Source of the DNA: Lytechinus pictus
Lineage: Eukaryota
Direction of reading: 5' to 3'
NCBI RefSeq assembly: GCF_037042905.1
Contig: NC_087251.1
Span: 31,870,001-31,934,000 of the forward strand
Length of the DNA stretch: 64,000 nt
Shown: positions 44,001-64,000 of the stretch, one piece after another
How positions within the stretch are numbered: position 1 is the stretch's first letter
How the letters are laid out: the number at the start of each line of letters is the position of its first letter
The notes under the pieces: model-generated
What the model saw: only the letters and a program-made list of their open reading frames with translations
Database searches by the model: none
Told to the model about the DNA's origin: nothing
Program-made: the position numbers and the translations under genes

Positions 44001-47000
44001 TCAAAACTGGAAGATGTATTTTTACTGGAGTGACAATGATTTGATTTGATTTGTTTGGGGGAACAGAGATCAAAGGTCACAGAGGTCATGCATCTTGAAA
44101 TTATCATTTTTGTGATAAGTCAAGAACTGTTTGGAGGAGTGACTTCAGACTTGGTCTATGAATGCAAGCATATAGCAAAGACAAAGATATTGTGGCTTAC
44201 TATTCTAGGAGAATAGCAAACTAGAACAGGAAATTAATTGGATAATTTCTCTGATCAAGCTAATTGGTGAATAAAAAAGTAGATTAGACTACAAATACTA
44301 TCAAGCACAAATACAGGATATTAGCCTCACTTCTCACCCCTATAAATTTATGCCTTTTTTCAGACCTTTTCTCATTCATGGAATGGGCTAAAAGTTTCTG
44401 GATATAATATATGTGGGTCATTTTTGTCTCGCCCACCAGAGGTGAAGGCGAGACTTAAGGATCCAAATGTCGTCTGTCGTCCGTACGTCACAAACCTTAT
44501 ATGACACATAACTCCACAACCGTAAGTCACTTTTCAACCAAACTTGGATGGTAGATGGACTTGGGGGACCTGCATGTTATGCTGCAGTCGGAGGTCACGT
44601 GGTAAGGTCAAAGGTAATTTTCAGGTCAACATTAAAGTTTACATGCAAGACTCTCTTATGACACCTAACTACGCAACCGTAAGTCACTTTTCAACCAAAC
44701 TTGGATGGTAGATGCATTTGGGGGATGTGCATGTTATGCTGCAGTTGGAGGTCACATGGTAAGGTCAAAGGTCATTTTCAGTTCAACGTTAAAGCTTACA
44801 TGCAAGACTCTCTTATGACACCTAACTCCACAAGCGTAAGGCACTTTTCAACCAAACTTGGATGGTAGATGTACTTAGGCAACCTGCATGTTATGCTGCA
44901 GTCGGAGGTCACATGGTAAGGTCAAAGGTCATTTCAGGTCAACGTTAAAATTTACATGCAAGACTCTCTTATGACACCTAACGCTACAACCGCAAGTCAC
45001 TTTTCAACCAAACTTGGATGGTAGATGGACTTGGGGGACCTGCATGTAAGGCTGCAGTCAGAGGTCACATGGTAAGGTCAAAGGTCATTTTCAGGTCAAC
45101 ATTAAAGTTTACGAGCAAGGCTCTTATGGCAAGTGTTATTCCATCCCAGTCATTTCACAATGAAATTTCGATACAATTCTGTTGCATGCCCTCGCAAATC
45201 ATGATATTTCTGGTTATTTTCATAAGTGGGCGAGACACAAAATCGCTTTTGCCTTGTTTGATTTGCAATCACTAAATTTGTAAACAAAATAAAAATATTA
45301 CTGAGATTTGACACTAGATGTTCAAGAAATTTTCAAGATTAAATGGCTAATCAAAATGATGCCCACTACTCTTTTTAAAGATGTTAGTATTAAATGATAT
45401 GTTAAATGAATTTCTTTGTGACAGATTTCATGTCATCGTAGCAACAGTGATGAATATTGGTCCTTCTATAATTACTTTTGGTGCAATTCTATTTGTAAGT
45501 ATCAAGTGCAAAGCGAACTGTTTATCTTTTTTTCTATTGACAGTCTACCCAAGTATAAATGAAACATTGCTAAGTTTATGCAGAATATATGTATATGGAT
45601 ACAGAACACAGAATATGTATACTACTCAGGTAGACTCATACTCAGTCAACCTTATAAGTGAAACATTGCTATTTATACAGAATATGTGTATTATTTTTTT
45701 GAGATGGGAACCTTGAATTTTTTTTCAAATCAAAATTGTTCTTATTGCAGAGACGTATTGATATTGGTTTCCTTGTTTATAGTGGATCCCGATGCGAAAT
45801 ATAAAACATATAATCACCTCCTGATTTCAGGTGACGAAGCAAGCTACCACTTCCTCGGCAAGCTGAATGTACCTGCTATCTTTCCTCAGCTTCACTTTGG
45901 AAAGATAGCTACATCCGGCTTGCCTCAGAATTGATATGTTTGTTTTGAAAGGTTACTTTATGGAATGACTCCAAACTGACGCGAGTTGATTTTTATGATT
46001 CTCATTTAGGTTGTATTTTACATCTATGCTGTGATTGGGATGGAACTGTACGCCGGTAAAGTCAACTACTATGGGTATGAGGTTGATGGTGCGGACCTGA
46101 CGGAGGATGAGCTTTATTGTGGCAACCCTCTCCTGCGTGGTTCGGATTTCTACCGAGATCATTACTGCAACAACAACTTCAACAACATCTTGAAGGCTTT
46201 CATTATCCTGATTGAGCTCATGGTCGTCAACCAATGGCATGATATCCTTTCAGTTATCACATTTCATAATGCTTGCAATATTAATCTTGAAAGAATTTTA
46301 AAGTGAATAGTAAATGACATTAAACTTGAACTATCACATGATTCTGATTTTTTTTTGTAAGCAATACATACCTCATAGGATAATAGATATTTAGCTATTC
46401 ACTAACAATCCAGTTAATTTGTGATATAATGTTATTTTTCATATTGATATTTTAACATATAGTGTCAGTATTCTAAAGCATGCAAAGCACCCCTCAAATT
46501 TTGAAAAGTTATAAAAAGTAATGATTCATTTTCCTGTATCTGTTTCAGATTTTGATAGTTAACTATTTCTTCCAATAAACCGAGACAAATGTAGATCAAT
46601 CTATTAACCTTAACAAAGTCACACTGATCTCTGAAGGATATGTGATAGTGACCAACAAGGCTTCTCGTCTATACTTCCTCTTCTTTCACATCTCTGTCGT
46701 CATTGTCATTATAAAGTAAGAAACACACCTTGTCTTTTACCTTGTCCTCATTTTAAATTATGAAACACACTATATGTTGACCTTTGAACCGATTTTGAAG
46801 TAGGAATCACACCATGTATTGACGGCAGCTTGGACCAGACTTGACCTCTCTATAAAGTAAGAACCACATGATATATTGACCTTTGACATCACTAATTTAA
46901 AACCATATCATATCTTGAACATAAATAAAGAATCACAGTATACCTGCACCACTGGCCTAAATATAAAGTAAGAACCACACAATATCTTGACCTTCGACCT

Positions 47001-58940: not shown

Positions 58941-59869
58941 AAATACATAAGACTTTGAGAATATATAAGCCTTATGAGAGCGCGAACTTTGTTGATATTA
59001 AGACCTGAAAATATGGACACTTTCGATCAGCACTTTGAAAAGGATGCATGCATGTATATTGGTCACATGTATTTTCTAACAGTGCGATCACGAATAATTG
59101 CTAGCCGAAATTAATGATAAAACCATAAAACTGTCATGAAAAGGGGAATTTTAAGTATAGTTTTCAAAATCAACTTATAGCTCACCATGATCCGCCTATA
59201 AAAAAAGCGTTTGCCATTTTCTTGTTTATTCATTAGCAAAAAAGAATGCCTATTGAAATTCCTGCATATAAATGTACCTCAACAAAAGTTCCAATGATAG
59301 ATGGACTCCCGCGCGGAGCGCGCGGAAAACCATAATTTTGTATATATACATACTATATATATAGATGTAAAAACCAAATTTTATACTGTATAAAAATTTG
59401 GTTAATTTGCCAATTTCTGCATATATAGTTTTCGTTCTTTTTGCACTTTTGCACAATTGGGGGCAAAACGCTATGATTGCCCCCAATTAATATTTTCGTT
59501 GGTGGGGTGATCGCCGCCTGCCGCGCTCCCCGCGGCCCCCAGGATCGACGCCTCTGTTGATCGTGATCGATCGGCACCGGCCCCGGCCGGCCATCAAAAA
59601 ATATAATTTGAGTGCCCCCCCCCCCCCCCCCCCCCCCTCCGGGGACCAGCCCTCGGACCAGCCCTATAGCTCCCACAAAGTGACCATTTAAAAGTATTTT
59701 GGCCTAAATATGCGAGAACCATTCTTTGGATGAAAATATTTGTATAGCATATGGACCTAGGCTATTGGTCCATGCAATAAACGACGCAATGGTTCTTTTA
59801 TTTACTTGCAGCATCAATAAACACAGAGCAAAAACTTTGGGCTAATTGGCTATCCACAATAAAGCATGC

Positions 59870-60036
59870 AGCTCGCGCATGCGTTACAGGTATGCACAGG
59901 ATCTCTAGATCACACAATTATCGTATTTATTCTGTTCAATATTTCATAGATGTTTGTACGCCAACTTCTTGGGCGCTTTCAAAGTGGGCAGGTTGTCAGT
60001 CATTTGAGGCGTTTTAGTAGTCAAAACTCAACAGCC
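59870..60036 (+). promoter_or_regulatory. Likely SELENOW promoter region with an NRF1-type site
   Basis: GCGCATGCG at 59875-59883, about 160 nt upstream of the ATG. Motif match only. Confidence 0.4.
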
Positions 60037-61955
60037 ATGGTTGTCAAAGTGAACGTAATTTATTGGTAAGAATGTAGAATTTCATATATTAATCACTTTA
60101 TACATCTCACTCGGCCAGAAACTAAGCAGTTCTGTGGCACTGTGCTGATGATTACCACGATGTTATACGGTAAATATAAAATACCGCCGGCGGTAGGCCT
60201 ACGTCTTCGACACCATATGATGCATGGCATGCACCAAATGCCGACCGTATACACGGTGCAGTGCCAGTGCAGTGGTGGCAGGAAAGTTGGGCTGAAGAAA
60301 GTTCATGGTTTAACCAAAGGCAACGTGTAGCATGTTAACGAAATACTCAAGTAGAAACCTATTGTTATTGTTAAGTCTTGACTCATAGTTCTTTTACTAT
60401 GTCTATGTTGCTAAAAGTAAAACAGTTAAAACTAAAAGTAAAATTATTTATGAGAAGCCAAACGTCAAAATTTGTTCACATGTCATGGTGTGTTTCTAAT
60501 GTTTACTGTGTGTTATTTTATAAAATATAAGTCTCACTTCAGTCTTTAATGGTGAAGTCTGAAGACACTCATCTTAGATCTATTTATCCTTCTCAGAAGA
60601 ATGATTAGAGAGTCAAATGAGCTGCTACTTTTTTGCTAGTGAGACTGTATAGTACATTGAACTTAAAGGGATGGTCCGGGCTGAAAGTATTTATAGCTTA
60701 ATAAATAGAGTAGAATTGACTGAGCAAAATGCCGAAAATTTCATCAAAATCGGATAACAAATTATAAAGTTATTGAAGTTTAAAGTTGAGCAATATTTTG
60801 TGAAAACAGTCGTCATGAATATTCATTAGGTGGGCTGATGATGTCACATCTCTACTTTCCGTTTTCTTATGTTATTACATAAAATCATTATTTTTTCATT
60901 ATTTCATACTTGTGTGAAAAATATGTCTCCCTTATAATGAAATAAGTTGCAGCAATAAATATCTAATGCACTAATTCAGTTGTCATTCCAATTTTTCTAC
61001 TTCTTGGAGGAAAAAATTTGAATAAACCTCATTTCATATAATAAAATACAAAAGAACAAGTGTAAAATATGATATTATTTTCTGAATATGTCAAAATCTA
61101 TCACAAAATTTGATATTGTAATAAAAAGTGGGAATATTTGCGTGCTCGCTTCGCTCGCTCACAACTTTTTAATACATTTTACCCGATCTGCCATATCTAG
61201 CTCCTTCAAAATTGACTCAATACACCATTGCCATTGAAAGACATGAATCCCTTCCCGTTTGTCCTGTCAAGCATATAATTAAACTTGAAAAATTGATTTA
61301 ATGTTGTAAATCGGATAATTAAATAATTCTCATCGATCACGGGTCAATGAACGATCGGCGGGACATCTTTTATAAGTATTTTTAGGTGCTAGCGATTTAT
61401 AATTATTGGAATAATCTCTTGATCTCGTACGATGCATCATCTTAAAGTCGCAAGTGCAATTAAAACGTAGTAGAAGTCGCAAGCATGCGCGATGATTCGG
61501 AACATGTTATTAAAATGTTTTGAGGAGCCTATCTTATTTATTGCTAATAAGTAATAGGGGTCTAGTAAATTCTGATTTTGTATTTGTTTTCTTTGTTTAA
61601 ATAGTATAATTTTACCTTTTACTATCGACATTGTATACATGTTAAGGACACCACTGGAAATAAGCTTTCCAGCTTTCGTGGGTCATTCTCACCCTGTGCA
61701 AGCCTGTTATTTTAATGCTACTGTATATGTTGTGGTGACTTGCCAAATAAAGTCAATAAAATAATCAGTTTGTATTGCAAAATTTTAAATCATGTTCAAA
61801 ACAGTATTGTAAAAAAAAACAGTCAAATAACCTAAGAAAGTAAAGAAAGTACATGTAGACTCTAGATTCTAATCCGTGTATTTATGTCTCATGATGTTAA
61901 TTATAATATTTCTCTAATTTTCTTTTGCAGTGGTGGATGAGGGTACAGGCCCAAG
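60037..61955 (+). CDS. SELENOW: Selenoprotein W-like (Rdx family), 5' part only: exons 60037-60065 and 61931-61955, with in-frame TGA (Sec) at 61938-61940
   Basis: GCCATGG start; 29-nt exon ending TG|GTAAGA; 25-nt exon between ttttgcag and AAG|GTAAGT. Spliced translation MVVKVNVIYCGG-U-GYRPK matches the SelW V-x-Y-C-G-x-U-G-Y-x-x-K motif. The remaining exons and SECIS were not found in the window. Confidence 0.9.
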
Positions 61956-63001
61956 GTAAGTACCATTAATACTGAAATGTAAAAAGTGTTTATAGAATCT
62001 TCAGTTGAAAGTAAGCAGAACACAAAATTTACACAATTTTCAGGAAACATAATTTCCTGACAAAAAAGTCTGAAGTTCAAAAAGTATGGTAAGGTTAGGT
62101 GCCCCTTGTCTGCGCGATTTTAGCAATAGAAGATACGCAGCGACCACAGAATTTACACATTCAATACATAGAAGATATTCATTAAAAAATCTGACTCAAA
62201 ATGGTGGAATAATAGTGAATTTCGGGCATTTCATGTTACAGCCTCAAAATGTAGCCTTTCTCATCAAAATCCCCATATCATGTGTATTAAAAGTGAATGG
62301 GTGCCCAGACATGGGGCACCATTTTTTGTTCAATCTGAAAATGACTGGCCAAGGTCTTTTTTTCCAAGAAAATCACATTTCTTTCAAATTTTTATGAGAT
62401 TTTTGGCACACTTACTAATAAAGGTTAAGTCCACTTCAGAAAAATGTTGATTTAAATCAATAGAGAAAAATCAGACAAGCATAATGCTGAAAATTTCATC
62501 AAAATCGGATGTAAAATAAAGTTATGACATTTTGAAGTTTCACTTATTTTTCACAACATAGTTATATACACAATTTAGTCGCATGCAAATGAGAGAATCA
62601 ATGAAGTCCCTCACTCACTATTTCTTTTGTTTTTTTATTGTTTGAATTACACAATATTTCAATTTTTACGGATTTGAGAATGAGGACCAACTTGACTGAA
62701 CCATAAAATGTTAAACAATGGTAGTTCCACATGTTCAGGGGGAAATGAGGAGAAAATTAGAATATTTCATATTTCATACAATAAAATACAAATGAAAGAG
62801 TGAGTGAGTGATGTTATCAGTTCCGTCATTTGCATACCGACCGGGATGTGCATATAACTGTTTTGTGAAATTAAGCGAAACTTAAAATGTCATAACTTTC
62901 TCATTTTACATCCTATTTTGATGAAATTTTCAGTGTTGTGTTTTCTCTTTTTATTCAAATCAACTTTTTGTTGGGGTGAACAGACAGTACTTGTCCGTTA
63001 A

Positions 63002-63811
63002 CCCTAATTCTCCGGGGGGGGGGGGGGCCATAATGCCCCCCCCCCTCGATAATTTTCGCGATATATCTGCTGCGCAAAATTTTTTGACCTGGCCGGCTGG
63101 CCGCTCACTGACTTTTTACTTTCAAGTCTCGCGCAAATTTTTTAGACCAAATTTGTGACGCCCGGGTACGCGGTTACGACATTACACAACATTATGTAAG
63201 CATGTCAGACCCAAAATTGCTCATAAACGTGATTTCATCTACAAATCCAATGCAAATTGTGTATTTAGCCAAAATTCACAAATGTATTTAGCCAAAATTC
63301 ACAAATGTATAATTATTTCTACTTTTACTGATTAAACTTAATTAATTTTGCCTTGTTTATGATCAGAATTAAGTCTGGAACGATTTCCACCGTAAAAACA
63401 ATAAAAAAACATAAAGTAAAAAACAAAGAAATACATTAGAAATTAAAAAAAACAATAAAATACATAAGAAATTGGTCTTGGTACCAGAATTTTTCTATTC
63501 ACAATTGTTAGGAATGCTCTAAAGAATATTTTCACCAAAAAATAGCATTCTAGGAGCTTTATTTAGTGAATCAGAGCAAAAAGTATGATTTCATGAATAA
63601 ATTAGCATAATTAATTCATATAAAATAAAAATATATGAATTCAGTGAAATTTACCAATGCAACTGCGTAGATTACGTCATTCTCTACCATCATGCAAATT
63701 TTCGTTGTGATCGCGCAATCCGCGGCTGAGATCTTAAGGGGGGGTCATAATGCCCCCCCCCCCCCCCCCCCCGGGAATTACAAGAATCAAAATACCCCGG
63801 GAGATTTAGGG
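63002..63811. mobile_element. piggyBac-like MITE in SELENOW intron 2
   Basis: TTAA-CCCTAATTCTCC...GGAGATTTAGGG-TTAA. Confidence 0.8.
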
Positions 63812-64000
63812 TTAAGAATTAAGAATATGAACATTATCAACTGAAAATTTTTGGGAAATAAAAAGAAATTCATGTTAAATCTTAACTTCAATAGTTAAGC
63901 GCGCAGACATGGCCCCCTTCATACATTGAAATAATGAAAAGCAAAGAAATATTGTTTTGAAAAAAAAATCTGCCCATCAAATCTGTTTGCTGTGTTGCTC

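What the first reader, a model, noticed from the sequence alone, without database searches (positions are those of the whole stretch)
60037..61955. Hidden selenoprotein: SelW-like CxxU motif split over two tiny exons with an in-frame UGA
Seen: a 29-nt coding exon and a 25-nt micro-exon with strong splice sites join to give ATG GTT GTC AAA GTG AAC GTA ATT TAT TGT GGT GGA TGA GGG TAC AGG CCC AAG. Known: SELENOW/Rdx-family proteins begin VxYCGxUGY with UGA read as selenocysteine; from memory, vertebrate SELENOW has the same short first two coding exons. Inference: TGA 61938-61940 is recoded as Sec. The gene is invisible to the ORF track and likely to be missed or mis-annotated.
Basis: partly seen in the sequence, partly recalled or inferred. 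Interest (0 to 1): 0.8.

Follow-up and report, generated by a model that had tools for sequence, protein, structure and literature searches.

The report
Expressed six-exon selenoprotein W gene
The two tiny exons are real and are spliced together in RNA as the start of a six-exon selenoprotein W gene, whose 13th codon (UGA) is very likely read as selenocysteine; this is a well-known, ordinary kind of gene.

Summary

RNA-seq raw reads of the same species label show junction 60065/61931 in 208 reads and 61955/68146 in 210 reads. Beyond the window they show 70071/75582 in 273 reads and 75678/77255 in 254 reads.

The gene has six exons over about 19 kb. Its frame encodes 84 residues, with Cys-Gly-Gly-UGA at codons 10-13.

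- **Homology:** exon 4 alone finds only mouse selenoprotein W (2npb) in the whole PDB (E 9e-5). Exon 5 has the same top hit (E 0.0013), and the two matches are collinear.
- **SECIS:** a type-2 candidate lies 32 nt inside the non-coding last exon. It scores 23.5 bits against Rfam SECIS_1, below that family's cut-off of 35.
- **Decoding machinery:** the genome has two tRNA-Sec loci.

Selenocysteine insertion itself is inferred, not shown. I could not assign the gene to SELENOW1 or SELENOW2. The gene is ordinary: a standard SELENOW-family gene, of interest mainly for annotation.

The parts
59972..60036 (+). 5'UTR part of exon 1 (minimum extent)
   Evidence: A contig of run X1 (241 nt) covers L014 472-564 = window 59972-60064 and continues across the joints (table 8). 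Depth is zero in all runs over window 59501-59834 (table 2). The exact start site is not resolved.
60037..60065 (+). Coding part of exon 1 (29 nt): start codon to the first two bases of the Cys-10 codon
   Evidence: Sequence. Donor gtaaga. Junction 60065/61931 in 208 RNA reads.
60066..61930 (+). Intron 1 (1865 nt, GT..AG). It contains a ~400-bp repeat at 60660-61062.
   Evidence: joint 'skips 1865, GT..AG'. Repeat copies.
61931..61955 (+). Exon 2, a 25-nt micro-exon: last base of the Cys codon, Gly, Gly, UGA, Gly-Tyr-Arg-Pro-Lys
   Evidence: Both flanking junctions are seen in RNA, in 208 and 210 reads.
61938..61940 (+). In-frame TGA, codon 13, predicted selenocysteine
   Evidence: Frame. It aligns with the residue-13 position of mouse SelW chain 2npb_A when read as Cys (weak, E 1.6). 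Decoding as Sec is inferred.
61956..64000 (+). First 2045 nt of intron 2. The rest of the gene lies beyond the window end. In coordinates that continue the window numbering (G000:C7 position = coordinate + 31870000):
- intron 2 runs to 68145 (6190 nt);
- exon 3 is 68146-68199 (18 codons);
- exon 4 is 69997-70071 (25 codons);
- exon 5 is 75582-75678 (23 codons, stop TGA 75651-75653, 25 nt of 3'UTR);
- exon 6 is 77255 to about 79214 (non-coding 3'UTR);
- the candidate type-2 SECIS is 77286-77355, with its AUGA core at 77294.
   Evidence: - **Intron 2:** joint 'skips 6190, GT..AG' in 210 reads.
- **Exon 3 end:** loose ends in 117 and 124 reads, whose consensus equals 69997-70026.
- **Later junctions:** 70071/75582 in 273 reads and 75678/77255 in 254 reads.
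- **Homology:** exon 4's only PDB hit is 2npb SelW, E 9.1e-5. Exon 5's top hit is 2npb, E 0.0013.
- **SECIS:** SECIS_1 at 23.5 bits, below the cut-off of 35; fold; descriptor scan.
- **3' end:** an X1 contig runs to L015 9414, and ATTAAA sits at 79184.

Best explanation
This is an expressed six-exon gene of the selenoprotein W (SELENOW, Rdx-fold) family, and its codon 13, UGA, is very likely decoded as selenocysteine.

**Shown.**
- The exons, their GT..AG junctions and their + strand transcription.
- A continuous 84-codon frame only if UGA-13 is read through.
- Similarity of the frame behind the UGA to mouse selenoprotein W.
- A SECIS-like hairpin inside the transcribed last exon.
- tRNA-Sec genes in the genome.

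**Inferred.**
- The hairpin would bind the SECIS-binding protein and recruit the Sec-specific elongation factor with Sec-tRNA to UGA-13, 280 nt upstream of the SECIS core in the mRNA.
- The product would be a small thioredoxin-like redox protein whose Cys-x-x-Sec pair forms a reversible selenenylsulfide.
- The second UGA, codon 85, terminates. It lies only 64 nt before the SECIS core. From recall, that is at or below the minimal spacing reported for recoding.
For: - **Sequence and splice sites:**
- **Junction reads in three RNA-seq runs:** 208, 210, 273 and 254 reads. All are GT..AG and on one strand.
- **Exon 3 to exon 4 link:** loose-end consensus in 117 and 124 reads, identical to the start of exon 4.
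- **Spliced frame:** 255 nt with TGA at codons 13 and 85.
- **Exon 4:** its sole PDB hit at E<=10 is selenoprotein W 2npb, residues 38-61, E 9.1e-5.
- **Exon 5:** top hit is the same chain, residues 63-84, E 0.0013.
- **Exon 2 frame with U read as C:** its sole PDB hit at E<=10 is the same chain, residues 8-20, E 1.6. The three matches are collinear.
- **Family models on exon 4 alone:** TIGR02174 at 21.9 bits, E 1.6e-4; Pfam Rdx at 14.4 bits.
- **SECIS:** SECIS_1 match of 23.5 bits with an intact AUGA...AAA...GA, 32 nt into exon 6. My descriptor scan expects about 0.6 hits per 94-kb strand from 20 shuffles, roughly 0.006 per kb.
- **tRNA-Sec:** two loci at 76.9 bits, called tRNA-SeC (tca) by ARAGORN.
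- **Copy number:** exon 4 occurs once in the genome at E<=10.
Against: - The SECIS match is below Rfam's gathering score (23.5 against 35). It did not appear in the 30-kb scan.
- The hairpin's folding energy is no better than that of shuffles (z 0.09).
- Exon 3 plus two intron codons found nothing in the PDB.
- Exon 5 matched no Pfam or NCBIfam family.
- Exon 4 alone is below the curated whole-protein cut-offs of both family models.
- The whole-genome Pfam Rdx search did not flag this locus, as expected for exons of 8 to 25 codons.
- I did not score or fold the whole spliced protein.
- No protein-level evidence of selenocysteine exists here.
Confidence: 0.93

Rival explanations
1. UGA-13 is a true stop. 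The transcript would be a decaying or non-coding remnant of a SelW gene that yields at most a 12-residue peptide.
For: The SECIS score is below Rfam's cut-off. There is no protein evidence. No relative was recovered from the large protein collection.
Against: All five coding exons stay in frame behind the UGA with no other stop until codon 85. The part behind the UGA still resembles SelW. Splicing is clean and well supported. The SECIS core and spacing are intact and lie in the transcript. The two coding differences between assembly and RNA are one synonymous and one Gly-to-Asp change, neither disruptive.
Confidence: 0.04
2. The TGA is an assembly error or a rare allele of a Cys codon, so the protein would be a Cys-type SelW homologue.
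For: Cys forms of Rdx proteins are common (MIEN1; passages of PMC13134290 seen).
Against: More than 200 RNA reads from other individuals cover the 25-nt exon in each junction set. No difference at 61938-61940 appears among the best-supported differences, while fixed differences elsewhere with similar depth are listed. A SECIS in the 3'UTR would be pointless for a Cys form.
Confidence: 0.01
3. The main product starts at the in-frame upstream ATG 59950. That would add 29 residues, rich in Arg and hydroxylated residues, resembling a mitochondrial presequence.
For: There is no stop between ATG 59950 and ATG 60037.
Against: - The X1 contig ends at 59972, behind that ATG.
- The summed depth over exon 1 is about what the roughly 80 junction-crossing reads alone would give for an exon of 90-110 nt (my estimate).
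- The upstream ATG has a weak context (T at -3), while ATG 60037 has GCC ATG G.
- About one random frame in five would stay open for 29 codons in this base composition (my estimate).
Confidence: 0.05

Closest known systems
Mammalian selenoprotein W (SELENOW / SelW1; solved mouse structure 2npb)
   Same: - It is the only or top PDB match of exons 2, 4 and 5, in collinear order.
- The Cys-x-x-Sec position is near residue 13.
- The product is about 85 residues long.
- The stop codon lies in the fifth exon and the SECIS in a separate non-coding last exon. That this layout holds for vertebrates comes from recall and from unchecked notes e1-7814257 and e1-9132124.
   Different: - It lies in an invertebrate-type genome beside a two-pore-channel-3-like gene, not beside the vertebrate synteny markers named in PMC13134290.
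- Exon 3 is too diverged or too short to match.
- Its terminator is also UGA.
SELENOW2 (paralogue group found in invertebrates, cyclostomes, amphibians and fishes)
   Same: PMC13134290 (passages seen) places the invertebrate genes of the SELENOW2/MIEN1 group in the SELENOW2 branch. From recall, the motifs around the Sec and at the exon 4/5 border look more like fish SELENOW2 than SELENOW1.
   Different: Not tested here: no SELENOW2 sequence could be fetched and no tree was built. TRPM7, the neighbour of vertebrate SELENOW2, was not seen among 80 open frames of 75 residues or more in window 1-60017.
MIEN1 (Rdx12) and other Rdx-fold proteins (SELENOH, SELENOT)
   Same: They share the Pfam Rdx / TIGR02174 fold family.
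   Different: Exon 4 did not match any MIEN1, SELENOH or SELENOT chain in the PDB at E<=10. The genome's other Rdx hit, on contig C3, is a different gene that looks SELENOH-like from recall.

Membership tests
SELENOW family (Rdx fold) | Cys-x-x-Sec redox motif near the N-terminus, with Sec encoded by an in-frame UGA | tested here: met
   Spliced codons 10-13 are TGT GGT GGA TGA. The join is seen in 208 RNA reads. The motif aligns to residues 10-13 of 2npb_A, weakly (E 1.6).
SELENOW family (Rdx fold) | Sequence similarity to SelW behind the Sec codon, in frame | tested here: met
   Exon 4 matches only 2npb, E 9.1e-5. Exon 5 has 2npb as top hit, E 0.0013. Exon 3 found no hit.
SELENOW family (Rdx fold) | Whole protein above the curated cut-off of Pfam PF10262 or TIGR02174 | tested here: inconclusive
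   Only single exons could be scored. Exon 4 scored 14.4 bits against a cut-off of 22.6 and 21.9 bits against 34.2. Exon 5 scored nothing. I did not hand the spliced protein to the tools.
SELENOW family (Rdx fold) | Thioredoxin-like beta-alpha-beta-beta-beta-alpha fold | not tested
   No structure prediction was run, because the protein exists only as a splice of five exons.
Eukaryotic SECIS-dependent selenoprotein genes | SECIS element in the 3'UTR of the same transcript | tested here: met
   AUGA core, 10-position helix II with 9 pairs, unpaired A run, 3' GA and 5-bp helix I. It lies inside exon 6 by 254 junction reads and strand-specific depth. Caveat: 23.5 bits is below Rfam's 35-bit cut-off.
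Eukaryotic SECIS-dependent selenoprotein genes | Selenocysteine decoding machinery in the genome | tested here: met
   tRNA-Sec at two loci, 76.9 bits against a cut-off of 47. ARAGORN calls both tRNA-SeC with anticodon tca. Protein factors were not searched.
Eukaryotic SECIS-dependent selenoprotein genes | Selenium actually incorporated at the UGA | not testable with these tools
   Needs 75Se labelling, mass spectrometry or ribosome profiling.
SELENOW1 versus SELENOW2 subfamily | Placement in a gene tree, or conserved neighbours (EHD2/RSPH4A for SELENOW1, TRPM7 for SELENOW2, per PMC13134290 passages) | tested here: inconclusive
   No tree was possible. The only Pfam hit among 80 upstream open frames is an ion-transport exon closest to two-pore channel 3. 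The region downstream of the gene was not scanned for genes.

The most novel reading that the evidence does not exclude
One mRNA uses UGA in two ways: as selenocysteine at codon 13 and as the terminator at codon 85, which lies only 64 nt before the SECIS core. The frame behind the terminator stays open for 60 more codons, running through the SECIS itself; only 2.7% of random frames here are that long. A fraction of ribosomes might insert a second selenocysteine and make a C-terminally extended two-Sec isoform. That would make this gene a natural ruler for how close to a SECIS a UGA can still be recoded.
Probability: 0.03. Interest if true: 0.6.

Novelty: already known. Interest (0 to 1): 0.22.

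Why it matters
The main value is for annotation. A gene whose first two coding exons are 29 and 25 nt long and whose 13th codon is UGA is easily truncated or missed by automatic pipelines. PMC13134290 (abstract seen) states that selenoproteins are often misannotated. The full six-exon model given here is backed by RNA.

The layout has the UGA on a 25-nt micro-exon, the stop in exon 5 and the SECIS in a separate last exon. If the recalled vertebrate layout is right, intron positions of this tiny gene would be conserved across deuterostomes. No new mechanism is implied.

Tried and rejected
- **Whole-genome Pfam Rdx search.** It found two other loci but not this gene, because the exons are too short.
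- **Regex and open-frame hunts for later exons.** The only regex hit, at 78196, lies in the 3'UTR and was a false lead. Splice-aware scanning then found exon 5.
- **Rfam scan of 30 kb downstream at E<=10.** No SECIS was found. It appeared only in a 3-kb scan.
- **The look-up of sequencing runs.** No RNA holder was listed. The RNA runs used came in through the same species label.
- **The search for homologous proteins.** The 43-residue open frame around exon 4, searched among longer proteins, gave 2 candidates and none at E<=10. That left me no SelW relatives for a tree, and it says nothing firm about annotation status.
- **PDB search with exon 3 plus two intron codons.** Nothing found.
- **Paper search for the vertebrate SELENOW exon structure.** Nothing useful was listed, so that comparison stays recalled.
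- **The search of earlier findings near the window.** Nothing found.
- **Continuation of the upstream channel gene.** Rejected, because RNA depth is zero over 59501-59834.
- **Not run.** Structure prediction, complex prediction and whole-protein family scoring, because the product exists only as a join of five exons.

Full report
**Observation.**
- ATG sits at 60037, in the context GCC ATG G.
- 29 coding bases run to 60065, followed by gtaaga.
- A pyrimidine-rich acceptor ends at 61930.
- A 25-nt exon runs 61931-61955, followed by gtaagt.
- TGA sits at 61938-61940.

Joined, codons 10-13 read Cys-Gly-Gly-UGA. The window is G000:C7:31870001-31934000 of an 812-Mb assembly. Earlier notes of this scan call the genome a sea urchin; I did not test that.

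**RNA evidence.** The look-up of sequencing runs listed no indexed RNA holder. It did add three RNA-seq raw-read runs with the same species label, X19-X21. About 6% of each run was read.

I laid them on window 59501-69500 (L014).
- Junction 60065/61931 is seen in 82+96+30 = 208 reads.
- Junction 61955/68146 is seen in 81+104+25 = 210 reads.
- Both are GT..AG on the + strand, and all reads are on the 'first mate on -' side. With the GT..AG orientation, this means a + strand RNA in a reverse-stranded library.
- One contig of run X1 carries both joints and reaches back to 59972.
- Depth over 59501-59834 is zero, so the transcript is not a continuation of the upstream gene.
- Reads end at 68199 with a loose end in 117 and 124 reads. 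Its 30-letter consensus is identical to 69997-70026.

The second lay covered 69801-79800 (L015).
- Junction 70071/75582 is seen in 122+120+31 = 273 reads.
- Junction 75678/77255 is seen in 90+130+34 = 254 reads, plus an X1 contig.
- Strand-specific coverage continues to about 79150. An X1 contig reaches 79214, just behind an ATTAAA at 79184.

**Gene model (coordinates continue the window numbering).**

| Exon | Coordinates | Content |
|---|---|---|
| 1 | about 59972-60065 | 5'UTR and 29 coding nt |
| 2 | 61931-61955 | 25-nt micro-exon with UGA-13 |
| 3 | 68146-68199 | 18 codons |
| 4 | 69997-70071 | 25 codons |
| 5 | 75582-75678 | 23 codons, stop TGA at 75651-75653, 25 nt of 3'UTR |
| 6 | 77255 to about 79214 | non-coding 3'UTR |

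- All introns are GT..AG, with lengths 1865, 6190, 1797, 5510 and 1576 nt.
- The coding sequence is 255 nt, or 84 residues if UGA-13 is read. The only stops in frame are UGA-13 and UGA-85.

**What the protein is.** I could not hand the spliced protein to the search tools, so each exon was tested on its own.
- **Exon 4 (25 residues).** It has exactly one PDB match at E<=10: mouse selenoprotein W 2npb, residues 38-61, E 9.1e-5. It matches TIGR02174 (SelT/SelW/SelH) at 21.9 bits and Pfam Rdx at 14.4 bits. Both scores are below the whole-protein cut-offs, as expected for a third of a domain.
- **Exon 5 (23 residues).** Its top PDB hit is the same chain, residues 63-84, E 0.0013. It matched no family model.
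- **Exon 2 frame, with U read as C.** Its only hit at E<=10 is again 2npb, residues 8-20, E 1.6. That places the UGA at the residue-13 position. Alone this is not significant, but it is collinear with the other two matches.
- **Exon 3.** Nothing found.
- **Copy number.** Exon 4 occurs once in the genome at E<=10.
- **Other Rdx hits.** The genome's other two Rdx hits are different genes.

**Recoding signal.** A 3-kb Rfam scan behind the stop codon gives one SECIS_1 match at 77286-77355 on the + strand: 23.5 bits, E 0.21, below the family's 35-bit cut-off. It was not reported in the earlier 30-kb scan.
- The match has the AUGA core and a 10-position helix II with 9 pairs.
- It has an unpaired A run 12 nt behind the core, a 3' GA and a 5-bp helix I.
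- The free fold adds a 6-bp mini-stem beyond the A run, which is the type-2 shape.
- The folding energy is no better than that of shuffles (z 0.09).
- My simple descriptor scan over 94 kb gave 2 hits on the + strand and 0 on the - strand. The mean was 0.6 per strand in 20 shuffles. A chance hit within the first kilobase of this 3'UTR is therefore improbable.
- The element begins 32 nt inside exon 6 and is covered by RNA.
- In the mRNA, UGA-13 ends 280 nt before the core. The terminator UGA ends 64 nt before it.
- The genome has tRNA-Sec at two loci, 76.9 bits, anticodon tca.

**Mechanism.** Transcription, splicing, the frame, the SelW similarity behind the UGA, the hairpin in the transcript and tRNA-Sec are shown. 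Three steps are inferred from established knowledge of eukaryotic selenoprotein synthesis and of SELENOW:
- the hairpin recruits the SECIS-binding protein and the Sec elongation factor to UGA-13;
- the product is a thioredoxin-like redox protein using a Cys-x-x-Sec selenenylsulfide;
- UGA-85 terminates because it is too close to the SECIS (minimal spacing recalled, not checked).

**Comparison with known families.** This is a standard SELENOW-family gene.
- SelW genes are reported in all six invertebrates surveyed in PMC3473315 (passages seen).
- PMC13134290 (passages seen) describes the SELENOW1, SELENOW2 and MIEN1 clades. It places the invertebrate genes of the SELENOW2/MIEN1 group in the SELENOW2 branch.
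- I could not fetch relatives for a tree, so the subfamily is open. From recall, the motifs look SELENOW2-like.
- The vertebrate synteny markers named in that paper were not seen. The only family hit among 80 open frames of 75 residues or more in window 1-60017 is a two-pore-channel-3-like exon at 46010-46303.
- Two unchecked earlier notes of this scan describe a ray SELENOW with its UGA on a 25-nt exon and its SECIS in a separate last exon. If correct, the exon layout here is the ancestral deuterostome one.

**Verdict.** The kind is already known, and interest is low to moderate, mainly for annotation. Whether public annotation misses the gene was not testable here.

Noticed in passing
window 60660-61062 (intron 1): A ~400-bp repeat. 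The own-genome search listed at least 40 copies at 95-98% identity, on many contigs. Most copies show a second, overlapping match of ~220 bp on the opposite strand, so the unit is partly self-complementary.
   Followed up: partly
window 46010-46303 (+): An exon of an ion channel. It scores 34.7 bits against Pfam Ion_trans, and its best PDB match is two-pore channel 3 (6v1q, E 4e-22, residues 555-634). This is the upstream neighbour on the same strand.
   Followed up: partly
window 59950-60036: An in-frame ATG 29 codons upstream of the start codon, with no stop between. The extension is Arg-rich and looks like a mitochondrial presequence. It lies about 20 nt upstream of the most 5' RNA contig end, so it is probably outside most transcripts.
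   Followed up: partly
window-equivalent 68183 and 75629 (L014 8683, L015 5829): Two fixed differences between the assembly and all RNA reads. G>A in exon 3 changes Gly to Asp at codon 31 (313 of 313 reads). T>C in exon 5 is synonymous, Ile (354 of 354 reads).
   Followed up: yes
window-equivalent 77772-78362 (L015 7972-8562), in the 3'UTR: A 591-bp element with terminal inverted repeats, flanked by TTAA on both sides. It is skipped by 53 RNA reads and one contig at a non-canonical joint. It is probably a MITE insertion present in the assembled haplotype and absent in the RNA animals.
   Followed up: partly
window-equivalent 72807-74142 and 70469-70802 (L015 3007-4342, 669-1002), intron 4: Very high same-strand RNA depth, up to about 2300 against about 60 on the exons. 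The joints are non-canonical and the loose ends are GCG-rich, and there are two similar copies in the intron. This is probably a highly expressed repeat family rather than part of the gene.
   Followed up: no
L009 5366-5618 (window-equivalent 69366-69618), intron 3: A long, nearly perfect hairpin. It matches the plant family MIR6217 at 68.6 bits, below its cut-off of 110, so it is most likely an inverted-repeat transposon.
   Followed up: no
window-equivalent 75654 onwards, spliced: The reading frame behind the terminator UGA stays open for 60 codons, through the SECIS. Only 2.7% of random frames in this region are that long.
   Followed up: partly
G000:C3:42131240-42131332 (L012): Another Rdx-family exon (Pfam 30 bits) in a 97-residue open frame. 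From recall it looks SELENOH-like. A weaker hit lies on C1.
   Followed up: partly
G000:C2:54020026-54020111 and C25:889015-889100: Two identical-scoring tRNA-Sec genes (76.9 bits). The one on the small contig C25 may be a haplotype duplicate.
   Followed up: no
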